Position numbers and translations under genes: made by a program
Part shown: in pieces, positions 2,116 through 64,000 of the stretch
How positions within the stretch are numbered: the first letter of the stretch is position 1
How the letters are laid out: each line of letters starts with the position of its first letter
Notes under the pieces: generated by a model
Database searches by the model: none
What the model was told of the DNA's origin: nothing
The model's input: the letters and a program-made list of their open reading frames with translations, nothing else
Origin: Candidatus Borrarchaeum weybense
Lineage (GTDB): Archaea > Asgardarchaeota > Sifarchaeia > Borrarchaeales > Borrarchaeaceae
Length of the DNA stretch: 64,000 nucleotides
Direction: 5' to 3'
NCBI GenBank assembly: GCA_019057385.1
Contig: JAHQJS010000007.1
Coordinates: 587,685-651,684 of the forward strand

Positions 2116-3069
2116 TCAAATCGTGATGTTAGTCCCTGTTTCTCCTTTAATTGCTTCGCCTATTTTTTCAACAGAAGTAATAATTACTTGTTTACCTCCT
2201 GTTAATAAATAACGAATTGCTGCCGTGACTTTTGGTGCCATTGAACCAGGCAAGAAATGACCCTCTGCTAAATACTTCTCTGCCTCTTTAACATTCATAG
2301 AATCTAACCATTGTTGATTCGATTTTCCAAAGTTTAATGCAACTTTTTCTACATTGGTCGCAATAAGAAAAAGATCGGCTTTCATTTTTTGTGCTAGTAG
2401 ACCTGAAGCTAGATCTTTGTCAATTACTGCGTGATCGACACCTCGTAAGAGTCCAGTTTCCTTATCCCTTGTGACAGGAATTCCTCCACCCCCAACGCAA
2501 ATCGTTATCACTCCTTCTTTGTCTTCGAAAAGTTTTGTAATAATATCTATTTCAACAATTTCTATAGGTTCAGGTGAGGCAACAACACGTCTCCAAGTTC
2601 CCTTCGCATCCTCTTTCATTATCCATTTCTCTCGTTCCATTAACTTTTGAGCTGTTTCTTTATCATAGCGACTACCAATTGGCTTAGAGGGATTCTCAAA
2701 AGCAGGATCGTTTTCATTTACTACAACTTGTGTTAAAACTGTAACTATCTTTTTGTGTGGACAAGAGCATGTGATCATACAACTGTTTAATGTTTGTTGA
2801 AGAATATAACCAATCAAACCTTGGCTTTCAGCTCCACATACATCAAGAGGAAGTGGATACACTTCAGGACTTGATAATTCGACACGACGCAGAATATGAC
2901 CGATTTGTGGTCCGTTACCATGAGTTAAAGCAATGTTCCAACCCTCAGTAATCATTCCTACTATGTGAGTACAAGTTCTTTTTGCTACTTCAAATTGCTC
3001 CTCAACTGTCCCTTTCTGGCCTTCTTCAATTAACGCATTTCCTCCTATAGCTAGAACTGCTTTTTTCAA
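2116..3069 (-). CDS. arcC: carbamate kinase
   Basis: AIGGNAL, THGNGPQIG, NPSKPIG, WRRVVASPEP, GGGGIPV, VIDKD, GSMAPKV motifs. Confidence 0.95.
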   Translation of the reverse strand: MKKAVLAIGGNALIEEGQKGTVEEQFEVAKRTCTHIVGMITEGWNIALTHGNGPQIGHILRRVELSSPEVYPLPLDVCGAESQGLIGYILQQTLNSCMITCSCPHKKIVTVLTQVVVNENDPAFENPSKPIGSRYDKETAQKLMEREKWIMKEDAKGTWRRVVASPEPIEIVEIDIITKLFEDKEGVITICVGGGGIPVTRDKETGLLRGVDHAVIDKDLASGLLAQKMKADLFLIATNVEKVALNFGKSNQQWLDSMNVKEAEKYLAEGHFLPGSMAPKVTAAIRYLLTGGKQVIITSVEKIGEAIKGETGTNITI

Positions 3070-3104: not shown

Positions 3105-4462
3105 TTAGCGTAAGTCCATTTTGATTATAAATCCGGATAGAATTTCTCTAAGTGTTGGTCCTCTGATCTCTTCCAGTTCGTATCTAACGCGAGTCATGGG
3201 TTTTTTACAACTGATGAGCCTTGTTAAATCAATTGGTGTGCCAATCACAACAGCATCACATTCTGCATTACATATAGTTACTTCTAATTCCTGAATTTGG
3301 TGCTCTCCATATCCCATCGCAGGCAAAATTTGATCAAGATGTGTGTATTTTTTATACACTTCTTTAATTGAACCAACGGCAAACGGACGTGGATCTATGA
3401 TTTCAGCGTTGAGGTTTTTCGCTGCTATCGCTCCGGCTCCGTATGACATTTGACCATGAGTTAGTGTTGGCCCATCTTCTATCACTAAAACTCGTTTTCC
3501 TTGAATCAAAGAAGGTTGATCAACGGTAATAGGGGAAGCTGCTTCTATTACTTTAGCCGATGGATTAACACGTTTTATATTCTCTTTGATTATCTTAACT
3601 CCATCTTTCGGGGCAGTATTAACCTTATTTATGATAATAACATCCGCCATCCGAAAATTAGTTTCTCCTGGATAATAACTCAATTCATGACCAGGTCTGT
3701 GAGCATCAGCAACGCAAATACTAAGATCTGAGTGGTAAAAAGAAAAATCATTGTTTCCTCCATCCCATACAATCAGATCACCAGATTTTTCAGCCTCTTC
3801 GAGGATACATTGATAATCTACTCCTGCAAAAACCGTAAATCCGTTCGCAATATGTGGTTCATATTCCTCTCTTTCTTCTATCGTTGTCTCATATTTATCC
3901 AAATCTTCGAAAGTTTCGAATTTTTGGCATTTTTCTTTTATTAAATTGCCATATGGCATGGGATGTCGAATAATACTAACTTTTATATTAAAATCTCTAA
4001 GAATCTTTGTTACCCGTCTAGTACAAGGAGATTTGCCAGCGCCTGTTCTTACTGCTACTATAGAAATGACTGGCTTACTTGACTTCAACATGGTCGTCTT
4101 TGGTCCCATTAGGCGAAAATCAGCGCCTCCAGCTAAGACTAGACTTGCTTTGTGCATAACATCTTCAAACGCGAGATCAGAATATGCAAGTATAACTTGA
4201 TCTATATTATATTCTTTAATAAGTTCTATTAGCCGTTCTTCAGAATATATTGGAATGCCTTGAGGATACAGATGCCCTGCAAGTTCAGGAGGATACCTTC
4301 TTTCTTCAATACCAGGTATTTGTGCTGCAGTAAATGCAAAGACCTTATAGACTTCATTATCTTTGAAATAGGCGTTAAAATTGTGGAATTCGTGGGTTAT
4401 TAAAACTAATAAAACCTATCACGTCCAGCTGCGCCCATAATCAATATCTTTATCTTTTTCAA
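3105..4462 (-). CDS. arcE: COG2403 P-loop protein (arginine synthetase ArcE / cyclic 2,3-diphosphoglycerate synthetase-like), two exons 4462-4418 and 4388-3105, 442 aa after splicing
   Basis: AVRTGAGKS, RHPMPYG, TIEEREEYEPH, WDGGNND, EDGPTLTHG, LPAMGY; N-terminal MKKIKILIMGAAGRD|FHNFN is restored by removing 4389-4417; TTG start with GGAGGTG RBS; adjacent to carbamate kinase. Confidence 0.8.
4389..4417 (-). other. 29-nt bulge-helix-bulge (BHB) mRNA intron
   Basis: Sense RNA UGGA-CGUG-AU^A-GGUUUUAUUAGUUUUAAUAACC-CACG-AA^U-UCCA: 4-bp central helix CGUG/CACG, two 3-nt bulges, flanking helices; canonical cuts give CGU GAU UUC CAC (R-D-F-H). Confidence 0.85.
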
Positions 4463-4551
4463 AGACTCATGCACCTCCAAATTAAGGTTATCAATCCTCC
4501 GCAAGAAGAAACCTCAACATCTTGGGAGGTCTTCTAGCATTAACAGATAAA

Positions 4552-4824
4552 TCAGTCTTCTGCTATTGTTACCAACTGTTTATCTTTTATTATTTCAACT
4601 CGTCTCTTTGTTTTTGTTATTTGGCTCACATGAATGATTCCTTCGATTTCTAATCGCATTAGTTCCTTGTTTATCCGATCTAATGATGAATTCTTATCAG
4701 CTCTTTGAACTAAAGTAACTAGATCCGTATCTAATATAACGCCCTGTCTCTTAGAAACTGCATTTAGGATTAGATTTCGTAACGGAATTGCGTTCCACAT
4801 GTTTTTTGTTGATATCTTTATCAC
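4552..4824 (-). CDS. small winged-helix protein
   Basis: 90 aa; INKELMRLEIEGIIHVSQITKTKRRVE resembles a wHTH recognition helix plus wing. Confidence 0.6.
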   Translation of the reverse strand: MIKISTKNMWNAIPLRNLILNAVSKRQGVILDTDLVTLVQRADKNSSLDRINKELMRLEIEGIIHVSQITKTKRRVEIIKDKQLVTIAED

Positions 4825-5094
4825 CCCAGAACAGCTAACGTAGACGAAAAAATTCTGCTTTTCTGTTAATTAAATAGAATTTAACTATCTATATTTCTGT
4901 AAATACATCCAATATTAATTCCTTAAAAAGTATAGCGAATTTCTAACTGAGGAGTATTACTATTTTAAGTTATAATCAGTTATCTTATAAGTTTAGTGTT
5001 TTTGAACTTCATTATTGTTTCCTATTCCTTTTTTTATAATCAATTCACAAGAAGACTCCGTCAACTTAATGGGAAGATGAACTGAAGTATAGTG

Positions 5095-5130
5095 TTTCAC
5101 TTTCACACAGGTCTCCCTACACTTAAATTA
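5095..5130 (+). promoter_or_regulatory. TTTCACTTTCA element + CTCCCTAC + TATA-like box upstream of the recombinase
   Basis: TTTCACTTTCACACAGGTCTCCCTACACTTAAAT; similar copies at 13983 and 17852. Confidence 0.65.
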
Positions 5131-5217
5131 CGTAACACATTACTTAAGCGTGGAGTATGCCGAATTGTTTGGCTTGGTATGGGGAACCTAAACAAAATGC
5201 GCTACCGATGAATAGAA

Positions 5218-6540
5218 ATGACTAAAAAACTTTCTGATGAATATATTAAGCAACAAGCAGAAGAACTTAAGAAACACATAGAAAAAACAGGAAAAGTTCC
5301 AACAGCAAGAGAACTTGGAAAACTTGGATTCTCAAGAAAAGGTTTAGTACGCTATTATGGTAGCTATAATAAATTAATCGAAAAACTTGGATTCCAACCA
5401 AATAAAAGATCATATACAAAGAAAGATTTACTGCAATTCTTAAGGAATTACAAAGAAAGAACAGGAAACATACCTTTAACTTTAGTATTTCATTCAAACA
5501 AAGATTATCCTTCTCCAACAATATATAGAAGGGAATTTGGATCGTGGAATGCCGCCTTAAGAGAAGCGGGGCTTGAAACAAACCTTGAATATCATGTTAG
5601 CGATGAATTAATTGAACAATATATCAATGATAGGAAAGATCTTTTGACAGATAGTACTATCCGATGTTATTATGCCACACTTTCAGATCTCTATGCATTC
5701 TTAAGATCAAAGGCTAAAAGTTGGGATGATTTAGACACAATTATTATCGCCGAGTATTTTTTTTATTTAAAGAAGAATGGTAGTTACTCTAAAAGAAATA
5801 ATAGAGCTCGACCGAATCGTGCGCAAGCCCTGAAGTCTCGAGCAATTCATATATCCGCATTTTTAACGTGGATTGAAAAATGGTGTAAGAGAAAAAAGAT
5901 AGATCCATATATAATAGATCCTAGTGAGATTGAAGAGATTAAAGCCTTATTAAAACGTCCCAATATAGTTCCAAAAACAGAAGAATCAACAAGACGCGCT
6001 TTGTCAGAAGAACAGCTAGAAATTATTCGACAGTCAATTGATGTATCAATTGACAGAAATATTTTTGACCTAGGATTAAATCTAGGTCTTAGAGTAAACG
6101 AATACGAAAAAATCACTTTGGACATGATCGATGGCTTTGAAACTGATCATTTTATTGTTGTTACTGGAAAACGGAACAAAAGAAGGAATGTAGTTGTTAC
6201 TGAGAATATAAAAACTATGATTAGAAAACAATTACTGCTGAGAAAATTGTACCGAGTAGAACATAATTATTTCTTCTTTGATGTCGGAAAGAAAGGAGCC
6301 ATAAGATTAACAAAAAAAAGAGTTAATGAAATTTATCAAAGGTTATCAGAATCAACAGGAATATTCTTCCGACAGCATGAACTACGCTATACTATGGCGG
6401 TACTGTTTCAAAATAAGGGTGTCCGACAGCATATTATTAGTCAAAGGTTGGGTCATAAAGGTAGTTCAACACAGCGATATTCCAGAATGACACCCCTAGA
6501 ACGCTATAAAATTCTTCAAAAAAAGGTAGGTTCTATTTAA
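5218..6540 (+). CDS. tyrosine recombinase/integrase with N-terminal homing-endonuclease-associated (HNH_repeat-like) repeats
   Basis: Catalytic set GLRVNE (R), TGKRNK (K), HELR (HxxR), LGH, TQRY (Y); two N-terminal repeats ending YYGSYNKLIEKLG and EFGSWNAALREAG. Confidence 0.85.
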   Translation: MTKKLSDEYIKQQAEELKKHIEKTGKVPTARELGKLGFSRKGLVRYYGSYNKLIEKLGFQPNKRSYTKKDLLQFLRNYKERTGNIPLTLVFHSNKDYPSPTIYRREFGSWNAALREAGLETNLEYHVSDELIEQYINDRKDLLTDSTIRCYYATLSDLYAFLRSKAKSWDDLDTIIIAEYFFYLKKNGSYSKRNNRARPNRAQALKSRAIHISAFLTWIEKWCKRKKIDPYIIDPSEIEEIKALLKRPNIVPKTEESTRRALSEEQLEIIRQSIDVSIDRNIFDLGLNLGLRVNEYEKITLDMIDGFETDHFIVVTGKRNKRRNVVVTENIKTMIRKQLLLRKLYRVEHNYFFFDVGKKGAIRLTKKRVNEIYQRLSESTGIFFRQHELRYTMAVLFQNKGVRQHIISQRLGHKGSSTQRYSRMTPLERYKILQKKVGSI

Positions 6541-63537: not shown

Positions 63538-64000
63538 ATGAACATGGGAATGGAGCCAGGTATGGGATATGATAGTGCGATAACTATCTTCTCTCCAGAT
63601 GGGAGATTGTTTCAAGTTGAATATGCGATCGAGGCAATAAGACGTGGAACTACTGCCATTGGAATGAAAGTCAAAGGAGTGGGTGCGGTCTTAACGGTTG
63701 AAAAGCGAGTTCTCAGCAGACTTGTGGTCCCAGAGAGCGTCGAAAAAATATTCAAAATTGATGAGCATATTGGTGTCGCGATTGCGGGGCTGACTGCAGA
63801 TGCGCGTGTCCTAATCAACCAAGCGAGGATCAATGCACAAATGCACAGGCTAACGTATGATGAACCAATTAACGTAGAAGTCTTAACACGGGAAATTGGA
63901 GATTTAATGCAGGTATATACCCAATATGCAGGTGTAAGACCTTTTGGTGTTAAACTATTGATTATGGGAGTAGATGATAATGGAACTCAATTATTTTCGA
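63538..64000 (+). CDS. psmA: proteasome alpha subunit (3' partial; start 63538 or 63544)
   Basis: [58 protein letters not shown]. Confidence 0.96.

What the first reader, a model, noticed from the sequence alone, without database searches (positions are those of the whole stretch)
4380..4430. Canonical bulge-helix-bulge intron inside a metabolic protein-coding gene
Seen: the family-conserved N-terminal motif GAAGRDFHNFN is interrupted by 29 nt (4389-4417, minus strand) that shift the frame and add stops (unspliced product ends GRDRFY*). The RNA folds as exon helix UGGA/UCCA, central 4-bp helix CGUG/CACG, 3-nt bulges AUA and AAU, and an intron stem (GG..UUAUUA/UAAUAA-CC). Known: the archaeal tRNA splicing endonuclease EndA cuts after the second nucleotide of each BHB bulge; applying that rule gives CGU-GAU|UUC-CAC = R-D-F-H and a 442-aa protein. 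The best-known archaeal mRNA intron is in crenarchaeal cbf5. Inference: this is an EndA/RtcB-spliced mRNA intron in an arginine-synthetase-like gene, linking its expression to tRNA-splicing capacity. Gene callers would truncate it by about 91 aa or call it a pseudogene.
Basis: partly seen in the sequence, partly recalled or inferred. Interest (0 to 1): 0.93.

Follow-up and report, generated by a model that had tools for sequence, protein, structure and literature searches.

The report
tRNA-type intron splitting an enzyme gene

Summary
On the minus strand, 29 nt (4417..4389) interrupt the conserved N-terminal motif MGAAGRD|FHNFN of an ArcE-like gene that lies next to carbamate kinase. The minimum-energy fold is a canonical hBHBh' motif. 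Cutting after the second nucleotide of each bulge restores the motif and gives a 442-aa protein.

- **Same genus:** relatives carry 29-, 24- and 20-nt inserts at this site. The BHB core is invariant and only the hairpin loop varies. One close relative has no insert.
- **Other lineages:** I found inserts with unrelated hairpins at the identical codon boundary in another Asgard family, three Aenigmatarchaeia genomes and a Woesearchaeota-like contig. I found none in about 50 bacterial homologues.
- **Covariation:** across nine sequences 97% of cells pair and 7 of 12 pairs show compensatory changes (0/500 shuffles).
- **Splicing machinery:** the genome encodes two EndA paralogues and RtcB.

No RNA data cover the junction, so splicing itself is inferred. 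The proposed regulatory link to tRNA-splicing capacity is untested.

Earlier agents of this scan reported the same gene's intron in at least five other genomes; my cross-lineage result agrees with theirs. I found no publication of it. I file it as a new member of the cbf5-type class of BHB mRNA introns.

The parts
4472..4478 (-). Shine-Dalgarno-like GGAGGTG, 9 nt upstream of the TTG start of exon 1
   Evidence: Read directly. The same GGAGGTG-spacer-TTG arrangement is seen in relative L003.
4418..4462 (-). Exon 1 coding part: TTG start plus 14 codons, MKKIKILIMGAAGRD
   Evidence: It is in frame with ATG GGC at 4438. Homologues begin M(K/R)xKVIIMGAAGRD. In L003 an in-frame TAG lies just before the TTG.
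4424..4427 (-). Outer (exon-exon) helix, 5' strand UGGA; pairs with 4384-4387
   Evidence: helix 1, 91.7% of cells paired.
4420..4423 (-). Central 4-bp helix, 5' strand CGUG (Arg codon plus the first base of the Asp codon); pairs with 4391-4394
   Evidence: helix 2, 100% paired; 2 of 4 pairs with compensatory change.
4417..4419 (-). 5' bulge AUA; predicted cut between 4418 and 4417
   Evidence: The cleavage rule (between the 2nd and 3rd bulge residue) is stated in PMC2738675.
4389..4417 (-). The 29-nt BHB intron
   Evidence: Its removal restores GRD|FHN. Relatives carry 29-, 24- and 20-nt versions and one has none.
4395..4416 (-). Inner hairpin of the intron (GGU..ACC base, variable loop)
   Evidence: helix 3, 100% paired; all 4 pairs with compensatory change across lineages.
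4391..4394 (-). Central helix, 3' strand CACG (inside the intron)
4388..4390 (-). 3' bulge AAU; predicted cut between 4389 and 4388
4384..4387 (-). Outer helix, 3' strand UCCA (from the Phe-His codons)
3105..4388 (-). Exon 2: 427 codons plus stop, starting FHNFNAYFKDN; ArcE-like (COG2403, annotated 'predicted GTPase' or 'cDPG synthase')
2116..3069 (-). Carbamate kinase (arcC) immediately downstream on the same strand: the metabolic context
   Evidence: NF009007, 359 bits.

Best explanation
The 29 nt at 4417..4389 (minus strand) are an archaeal bulge-helix-bulge intron inside the coding sequence of an ArcE-like (arginine synthetase family) gene. In the primary transcript, the end of exon 1, the intron and the start of exon 2 fold into a canonical hBHBh' motif. 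The splicing endonuclease EndA, here probably an (alpha-beta)2 heterotetramer, cuts between the 2nd and 3rd nucleotide of each 3-nt bulge. RtcB then joins the exons and probably circularises the intron. The mature mRNA reads ...GGA CGU GAU|UUC CAC... and encodes a 442-aa enzyme with the family's intact MGAAGRDFHNFN N-terminus. Without splicing, translation stops after 18 residues. Shown here: the motif, its exact frame-restoring position, its conservation and covariation, and the presence of the enzymes. Inferred: that cutting and ligation happen in the cell, and that splicing is constitutive rather than regulatory.
For: (1) The minimum-energy fold equals the canonical BHB.
(2) The EndA rule restores GRD|FHN. 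That motif is contiguous in 85 of 101 homologue loci fetched; the other 16 are the seven interrupted loci plus nine that are cut by a contig end or have a divergent motif. It is also contiguous in 27 of 28 Asgard loci.
(3) Same-genus contigs from independent assemblies carry 29-nt (three interior changes), 24-nt and 20-nt inserts. All helices and bulges are identical and only the loop varies. A relative at 87% identity is uninterrupted and uses different codons.
(4) Inserts with unrelated hairpins sit at the identical codon boundary in Asgard genome G011 (22 nt), Aenigmatarchaeia genomes G400, G483 and G402 (20, 19 and 24 nt) and a Woesearchaeota-like contig (27 nt). Their central helices follow the Arg codon: CGUG/CACG, CGCG/CGCG, AGGG/CCCU.
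(5) Covariation: 97.2% of cells paired, 7 of 12 pairs compensatory, 0 of 500 shuffles as good, and slid controls pair only 32-52%.
(6) None of about 50 bacterial homologues has an insert.
(7) The genome has two EndA paralogues, one with and one without the catalytic His context, plus RtcB. Asgard EndA is reported as the (alpha-beta)2 type (PMC5829648).
(8) The gene is single-copy in this genome and sits next to arcC.
(9) Other genes of the same genome are split in the same way: TBP and rrp41.
Against: No RNA read or contig spans the junction: metatranscriptome contigs stop at 4352. No database protein fragment matches a spliced product of this genus. The fold energy (-9 kcal/mol) is no better than shuffled sequence. 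Within the genus the BHB helices are invariant, so all covariation comes from comparisons between lineages whose introns may not be homologous. The intron lies only 45 nt after the start codon, so a translating ribosome could compete with folding and cleavage.
Confidence: 0.85

Rival explanations
1. The downstream frame is translated on its own from an internal start (for example the ATG at 4157, or a near-cognate start just after the insert). This would give an enzyme without the GAAGRD segment, and the upstream 18-codon ORF would be a leader peptide or nothing.
For: Gene callers produce such models of 350, 388 and 433 aa. No RNA evidence for splicing exists.
Against: All nine interrupted loci keep, directly upstream and in a frame that splicing would join, a start codon plus (I/L)MGAAGRD. 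The motif is universal in the family. This model needs neither a BHB nor covariation between the Arg codon and the insert.
Confidence: 0.05
2. The gene is a pseudogene, or is inactivated by a small insertion that happens to be palindromic.
For: Taken alone, the insert shifts the frame and introduces stops.
Against: Both exons remain open and conserved at 85-92% protein identity across diverged relatives from independent assemblies. Insert lengths vary (29, 24, 20 nt) but the BHB core is untouched. Independent lineages share the exact site. The gene is the only copy and is syntenic with arcC.
Confidence: 0.04
3. The ribosome bypasses the insert (programmed hopping, as in phage T4 gene 60), or another recoding event joins the frames during translation.
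For: A stop codon follows shortly after the break, and a hairpin lies within the gap.
Against: There are no matched take-off and landing codons (GAU versus GAA/UUC). Gap lengths range from 19 to 29 nt with unrelated sequences. What is conserved is the two-bulge geometry that pairs exon with insert, which hopping does not require. The inserts occur only in EndA-bearing archaea.
Confidence: 0.03
4. The BHB is cut by EndA but the exons are not religated. The site would then be a processing or decay signal that down-regulates the mRNA, or separates a 5' leader, like the BHB in a Haloferax 5' UTR.
For: EndA substrates outside tRNA and rRNA exist in 5' UTRs (PMC7714728, abstract seen).
Against: The cuts fall exactly at a codon boundary that rebuilds a universally conserved motif in every lineage. 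This would be a coincidence if ligation did not matter. RtcB is present.
Confidence: 0.03

Closest known systems
BHB intron of the cbf5 (pseudouridine synthase) pre-mRNA in Crenarchaeota (Watanabe 2002; Yoshinari 2006; Yokobori 2009, PMC2738675)
   Same: Both are short introns inside a protein-coding sequence. Both are defined by a bulge-helix-bulge fold spanning the exon-intron borders, with predicted cuts between the 2nd and 3rd bulge residues. Both show patchy presence and absence among relatives, and gene callers mis-call both.
   Different: The gene is different (a metabolic ArcE-like enzyme, not an RNA-modification enzyme) and so are the phyla (Asgard and DPANN, not Desulfurococcales/Sulfolobales). 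This BHB is strictly canonical, whereas cbf5 has an 'unconventional' BHB said to need the hetero-oligomeric enzyme. The intron lies at codon 15/16, next to the start. The same site is occupied by unrelated hairpins in several phyla. Splicing of cbf5 was confirmed by cDNA; this one is not confirmed.
Archaeal tRNA introns, including the multi-intron tRNA genes of some Asgard classes (PMC11291895; bioRxiv 10.64898/2026.10.13.758758)
   Same: The motif is the same, the enzymes are presumably the same, and the size range of 15-40 nt is similar. The host genome also looks rich in interrupted tRNA genes.
   Different: The substrate is an mRNA coding region. In the text searches I ran, those papers describe tRNA introns only.
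HAC1/XBP1 unconventional mRNA splicing in eukaryotes (Ire1 plus tRNA ligase/RtcB)
   Same: Both are non-spliceosomal: a small frame-changing intron is removed from an mRNA by an endonuclease that cuts stem-loops, and a tRNA-type ligase joins the exons.
   Different: The nuclease (Ire1, not EndA) and the RNA motif differ. HAC1/XBP1 splicing is a regulated stress switch, whereas nothing here indicates regulation. This comparison rests on my own knowledge and was not tested.
ArcE arginine synthetase, TK2200 of Thermococcus kodakarensis (PMC11032458)
   Same: The host gene belongs to the family annotated 'putative GTPase'. It has low similarity to cDPG synthase and lies beside arcC, as that paper describes for arcE homologues, including those in Lokiarchaeota.
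   Different: I made no direct comparison with TK2200, no activity is known for this protein, and no intron is mentioned in the passages I read.

Membership tests
Archaeal BHB (EndA/RtcB-spliced) intron | 4-bp central helix flanked by two 3-nt bulges on opposite strands, with outer and inner helices (hBHBh') | tested here: met
   The minimum-energy fold gives exactly this. The element-by-element parse holds in nine sequences.
Archaeal BHB (EndA/RtcB-spliced) intron | Cuts between the 2nd and 3rd bulge nucleotides give a functional ligated product | tested here: met
   The cuts restore MGAAGRD|FHNFN and a 442-aa frame. The motif is contiguous in more than 110 homologues. The rule is from PMC2738675.
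Archaeal BHB (EndA/RtcB-spliced) intron | Structure conserved in evolution with compensatory changes while the loop sequence is free | tested here: met
   97.2% of cells paired, 7 of 12 pairs changed on both sides, 0 of 500 shuffles as good. Loop lengths of 19-29 nt.
Archaeal BHB (EndA/RtcB-spliced) intron | Host encodes the splicing endonuclease and the RtcB ligase | tested here: met
   Two PF01974 loci (99 and 77 bits) and PF01139 (582 bits). EndA is also present in the Aenigmatarchaeia host G400.
Archaeal BHB (EndA/RtcB-spliced) intron | Spliced junction and excised (circular) intron present in RNA; cleavage by EndA in vitro | tested here: inconclusive
   RNA-library contigs cover 4062-4352 only and none reaches the junction. 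No spliced-type protein fragment was found. The in vitro assay cannot be done with these tools.
ArcE arginine synthetase family (TK2200-like, COG2403) | Full-length homology to the family, with the N-terminal GAAGRDFHNFN motif | tested here: met
   65-67% identity over 98-100% of exon 2 to hundreds of 430-460-aa proteins named 'predicted GTPase' or 'cDPG synthase'. The motif is present after splicing.
ArcE arginine synthetase family (TK2200-like, COG2403) | Genomic association with arcC and/or arcB | tested here: met
   Carbamate kinase lies directly downstream, and also in relatives L003 and L106.
ArcE arginine synthetase family (TK2200-like, COG2403) | Direct similarity to the characterised TK2200 protein; arginine + ADP + Pi <-> citrulline + NH3 + ATP activity | not tested
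The family description is from PMC11032458.
Cyclic 2,3-diphosphoglycerate synthetase | Close sequence similarity to solved cDPG synthetases | tested here: not met
   Only a weak local match was found (E = 2.6e-6 over about 124 residues). The database name 'cDPG synthase' is therefore a family-level transfer.
Translational bypass (T4 gene 60 type) | Matched take-off and landing codons flanking the gap | tested here: not met
   GAU before the gap and GAA/UUC after it in the window. Other lineages have other flanks.
Known structured RNA families (group I/II introns, sRNAs) | Match to an Rfam covariance model | tested here: not met
   No match at E <= 1 in 3900-5300.

The most novel reading that the evidence does not exclude
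The D|F codon boundary of the arcE N-terminus is a recurrently occupied BHB-intron site across archaeal phyla (Asgard, Aenigmatarchaeia, Woesearchaeota-like). The protein motif G-R-D-F-H by itself encodes the exon-exon helix in 72% of uninterrupted genes, so small BHB introns may insert there repeatedly, or be very ancient and repeatedly lost. Either way they would behave as mobile or heritable elements of coding genes. In this Asgard lineage the same splicing also serves core genes (TBP with three inserts, rrp41). Endonuclease-dependent mRNA splicing would then be a routine layer of gene expression in close relatives of eukaryotes.
Probability: 0.45. Interest if true: 0.9.

Novelty: new member of a known kind. 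Interest (0 to 1): 0.72.

Why it matters
Published archaeal mRNA splicing rests on one coding gene, cbf5. The 2009 cbf5 paper states that no other gene had been confirmed, and my library searches found nothing later for Asgard or DPANN.

A second gene family would matter for several reasons.
- **Wider role for the machinery:** it is a metabolic gene split at one codon boundary in several phyla, including the closest prokaryotic relatives of eukaryotes. That would show that the tRNA-splicing machinery serves messenger RNAs more widely.
- **A system for intron evolution:** the gene offers a natural case for studying gain and loss of BHB introns, with closely related genomes that do and do not carry the intron.
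- **Annotation:** database models of 350, 388 and 433 aa are wrong, so pathway predictions would lose ArcE or call it a pseudogene.
- **Testability:** one RT-PCR across one junction would decide it.

Tried and rejected
- **RNA evidence.** Two run searches and one read-laying found only short RNA-library contigs from a 95-99% relative covering 4062-4352. Nothing lies on 4381-4554, so splicing is neither shown nor refuted.
- **Spliced protein fragments.** I searched 5.8 billion proteins for short fragments with a contiguous N-terminus from this genus, which would indicate spliced transcripts. The best hit was 76% identical, so there are none.
- **Genome-wide census.** I scanned for BHB geometry combined with ORF restoration, using strict and relaxed geometry, a codon-usage filter and a bulge filter.
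  - Counts barely exceeded shifted controls (for example 103 against 74-83), so I give no number of mRNA introns.
  - The scan does recover this intron and TBP insert 2.
  - It misses inserts with imperfect outer helices and in-frame inserts without stops.
  - One hit in the window (63552-63597) is a false positive inside the proteasome alpha N-terminus.
- **Thermodynamic significance.** z = 0.02, not informative for such a small AU-rich motif.
- **Rfam.** No match.
Only one of the six intron-bearing lineages I examined has a LAGLIDADG ORF next to the gene (L145). The neighbouring ORFs of L144 and of the window (4552-4824) are unrelated to it.
- **Exon-side codon constraint.** All 9 interrupted genes have at least 3 outer base pairs, but so do 72% of uninterrupted genes. 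This is not significant as evidence of selection.
- **Rejected readings.** Translational bypass, pseudogene, internal start and assembly artefact were considered and rejected; the first three are treated under rival explanations. The artefact is excluded because five independent assemblies carry an insert at the site.

Full report
**1. The observation**

On the minus strand the text reads ...ATG GGC GCA GCT GGA CGT GAT, then 29 nt (4417..4389), then TTC CAC AAT TTT AAC.... Read straight through, the frame ends GRDRFY* (ORF 4406..4504). From 4388 the frame is open for 427 codons to the stop at 3105. The longest ATG-started ORF begins only at 4157 and has 350 aa.

- a 4-bp outer helix, UGGA/UCCA;
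- a 4-bp central helix, CGUG/CACG;
- 3-nt bulges AUA and AAU on opposite strands;
- an inner hairpin.

The energy is ordinary for this composition (z = 0.02). The argument therefore rests on geometry and position, not stability.

Cutting between the 2nd and 3rd residue of each bulge is the rule stated for cbf5 introns in PMC2738675. It removes exactly 4417..4389 and joins GAU|UUC. With the TTG at 4462, which lies 9 nt after a GGAGGTG, exon 1 has 15 codons. The product has 15 + 427 = 442 aa.

**2. What the gene is**

Exon 2 matches hundreds of 430-460-aa proteins at 65-67% identity over its full length. They are named 'predicted GTPase' or 'cyclic 2,3-diphosphoglycerate synthase'. Similarity to solved cDPG synthetases is only weak and local. 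Pfam sees only the tail of a CobW/HypB-type nucleotide-binding domain. The next gene downstream is carbamate kinase.

This fits the description of arcE (TK2200), the ATP-forming arginine synthetase. That paper describes arcE as annotated a putative GTPase, distantly similar to cDPG synthase, often beside arcB or arcC, and present in Lokiarchaeota (PMC11032458). I did not compare the protein with TK2200 directly, so 'ArcE-like' is a well-founded inference, not a test. The gene is single-copy in this genome.

**3. Is the motif really interrupted?**

The N-terminal motif GAAGRD(F/Y)H is contiguous in 85 of the 101 homologue loci fetched from metagenomes and genomes. The other 16 are the seven interrupted loci plus nine that are cut by a contig end or have a divergent motif. 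It is also contiguous in 27 of 28 further Asgard loci. Homologues start M(K/R)xKVIIMGAAGRDFHNFN, which is exactly what the spliced window sequence gives.

**4. Close relatives**

The organism is a Promethearchaeota (Asgard) archaeon with 4.18 Mb in 8 contigs. Contigs from five independent assemblies of the same genus-level group carry an insert at the same place:

| Locus | Source | Insert |
|---|---|---|
| L003 | NCBI MAG, 92% protein identity | 29 nt, three interior changes |
| L106, L107, L108 | two JGI samples and one ENA sample | 24 nt; a multiple of three, with an in-frame TGA |
| L004 | ENA | 20 nt |

In all of them the outer helix, central helix, both bulges and the GG/CC base of the hairpin are unchanged. 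Only the loop differs in length and sequence.

A fifth relative (L005, 87% identity) has no insert. It spells the junction with other codons (GGT CGA GAT TTT CAT), so it is a genuinely uninterrupted gene and not a spliced copy. This excludes an assembly artefact. It is also the pattern expected of a structure-constrained intron.

Database gene models of these loci are 350, 388 and 433 aa. The last one starts inside the intron (MLTTHEFHNFN).

**5. Other lineages, same site**

While checking the homologue loci I found further interrupted genes at the identical D|F(Y) boundary:

| Lineage | Locus | Insert | Central helix |
|---|---|---|---|
| Aenigmatarchaeota MAG | L075 | 20 nt | AGGG/CCCU |
| Woesearchaeota-like metagenome contig | L039 | 27 nt | CGCG/CGCG (3' bulge UGU) |
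| Asgard genome of another family, G011 | L119 | 22 nt | CGCG/CGCG |
| Aenigmatarchaeia G483 | L144 | 19 nt | CGUG/CACG |
| Aenigmatarchaeia G402 | L145 | 24 nt | CGUG/CACG |

The first two come and the third.
- Two congeners of G011 are uninterrupted at 92% protein identity.
- A pattern search for any 15-45-nt insert between the two motif halves found only G000, G003 and G011 among 400 Asgard genomes, 292 of which carry the gene.
- The same search found G483 and G402, as well as G400 (the genome of L075), among 121 sampled Aenigmatarchaeia.

All obey the same parse, and the EndA rule restores the motif in each. The central helix tracks the Arg codon used, while the hairpins are unrelated in sequence.

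On the 9-sequence alignment A1 the stated structure gives:
- 97.2% of cells paired, against 83.4 ± 1.8 in shuffles (0 of 500 as high);
- 7 of 12 pairs with changes on both sides;
- 32-52% pairing when the 3' partners are slid by 1-3 columns.

None of roughly 50 bacterial homologues in the sample has an insert. That is expected if removal needs the archaeal endonuclease.

**6. History**

On a maximum-likelihood tree of 109 exon-2 proteins the interrupted genes are scattered. Parsimony needs 7 changes, and well-supported branches force at least 5. Interrupted and uninterrupted genes are sisters at 87-92% identity in three places.

Either the site gains introns repeatedly, or an old intron is lost often and precisely. 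I cannot decide between these.

One relevant fact: the amino-acid motif itself supplies the exon-exon helix. GGN of Gly pairs with UYC of Phe-His, and 54 of 75 distinct uninterrupted junctions already have at least 3 such pairs. An insert therefore only needs to bring a hairpin plus four bases complementary to the Arg-Asp codons.

Among my six lineages only G402 has a LAGLIDADG ORF beside the gene. Neighbouring ORFs elsewhere are unrelated to it.

**7. The machinery and the genomic context**

- The genome has two PF01974 loci. One keeps the Tyr...His...Lys context of a catalytic subunit and the other lacks the His segment (assigned from my knowledge of the EndA triad). This fits the (alpha-beta)2 enzyme reported for Asgard archaea (PMC5829648).
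- RtcB is present.
- ARAGORN finds only 32 tRNA genes, half with introns, in a genome scored complete. This recalls the heavily interrupted tRNA genes described for some Asgard classes (PMC11291895).
- Other coding genes are split too. The TBP gene has three BHB-type inserts: its second repeat matches the Pfam model in two different frames, and the inserts parse as BHB. rrp41 is likewise split across frames with a BHB-like fold at the break.
- My own geometry-plus-ORF census did not rise clearly above shifted controls, so I give no count.

**8. What is not shown**

No RNA evidence covers the junction, and no database fragment looks like a spliced product of this genus. Cutting, ligation and the fate of the intron are inferred from the motif and the enzymes. 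The suggestion that the intron couples ArcE expression to tRNA-splicing capacity is possible but has no support. The default reading is constitutive removal.

**9. Comparison with what is known, and verdict**

The closest known case is the cbf5 pre-mRNA intron of Crenarchaeota. Its authors noted that no other protein gene had been confirmed. Searches of the paper library for BHB or mRNA introns in Asgard, Lokiarchaeota or Atabeyarchaeia returned only tRNA and rRNA work.

Within this scan, earlier agents reported the same gene's intron in at least five other genomes and reached the same reading. My cross-lineage findings were obtained independently before I read those notes, and they agree.

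I file the element as a new member of a known kind (BHB intron in a coding mRNA), with 0.85 confidence that it is spliced as proposed. Interest is high because of the recurrent site, the Asgard host and the ease of a decisive test.

Noticed in passing
L109:1680-2050 (= G000 C6:542850-543220): The TBP gene of the same genome carries three BHB-type inserts: 30 nt (in frame, no stop), 37 nt and 31 nt. Inserts 1 and 3 sit at the homologous VCT|G(G/A)KS position of the two TBP repeats. The Pfam TBP model matches the second repeat in two different frames.
   Followed up: partly
L150/L149 (= G000 C3:140481-140901): rrp41 (RNase PH domain) is split into two frames (profile positions 1-64 and 59-130), with a BHB-like fold at the break near C3:140654-140700. 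The neighbouring rrp42 is intact.
   Followed up: partly
window 5218-6540 (+): A 440-aa tyrosine recombinase with an N-terminal 'homing endonuclease associated repeat' (PF18780) lies about 750 nt upstream of exon 1, on the opposite strand. Relatives L003 and L106 have a LysE gene there instead, so this looks like a strain-specific mobile-element insertion. No link to the intron is shown.
   Followed up: partly
L145:1583-2614 (-): In Aenigmatarchaeia genome G402 a 343-aa ORF with a LAGLIDADG_3 domain lies between carbamate kinase and the intron-bearing arcE gene. It is the only one of six intron-bearing lineages with a homing-endonuclease-like neighbour.
   Followed up: partly
window 4552-4824 (-): A 90-aa ORF with no Pfam match lies directly upstream of arcE on the same strand. 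It is conserved in position in relatives (L003:727-999, L106:618-866). It could be a small regulator or the first gene of the operon.
   Followed up: no
G000 whole genome: ARAGORN finds only 32 tRNA genes, 16 with introns, in a genome scored 100% complete. It also reports a tRNA with anticodon CUA called Pyl at C7:143743-143811. Many tRNA genes are probably hidden by multiple or non-canonical introns.
   Followed up: no
L009/L010 (= G000 C1:13917-15008): A second RtcB copy matches the Pfam model in two pieces (positions 1-88 and 132-426) within one 409-aa frame. This suggests a divergent or deleted segment.
   Followed up: no
window 63552-63597 (+): A strict BHB-geometry hit whose 'removal' keeps an ORF open is a false positive. 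The 46 nt encode [11 protein letters not shown], part of the conserved proteasome alpha N-terminus. It is a useful warning for automated BHB-intron calls.
   Followed up: yes
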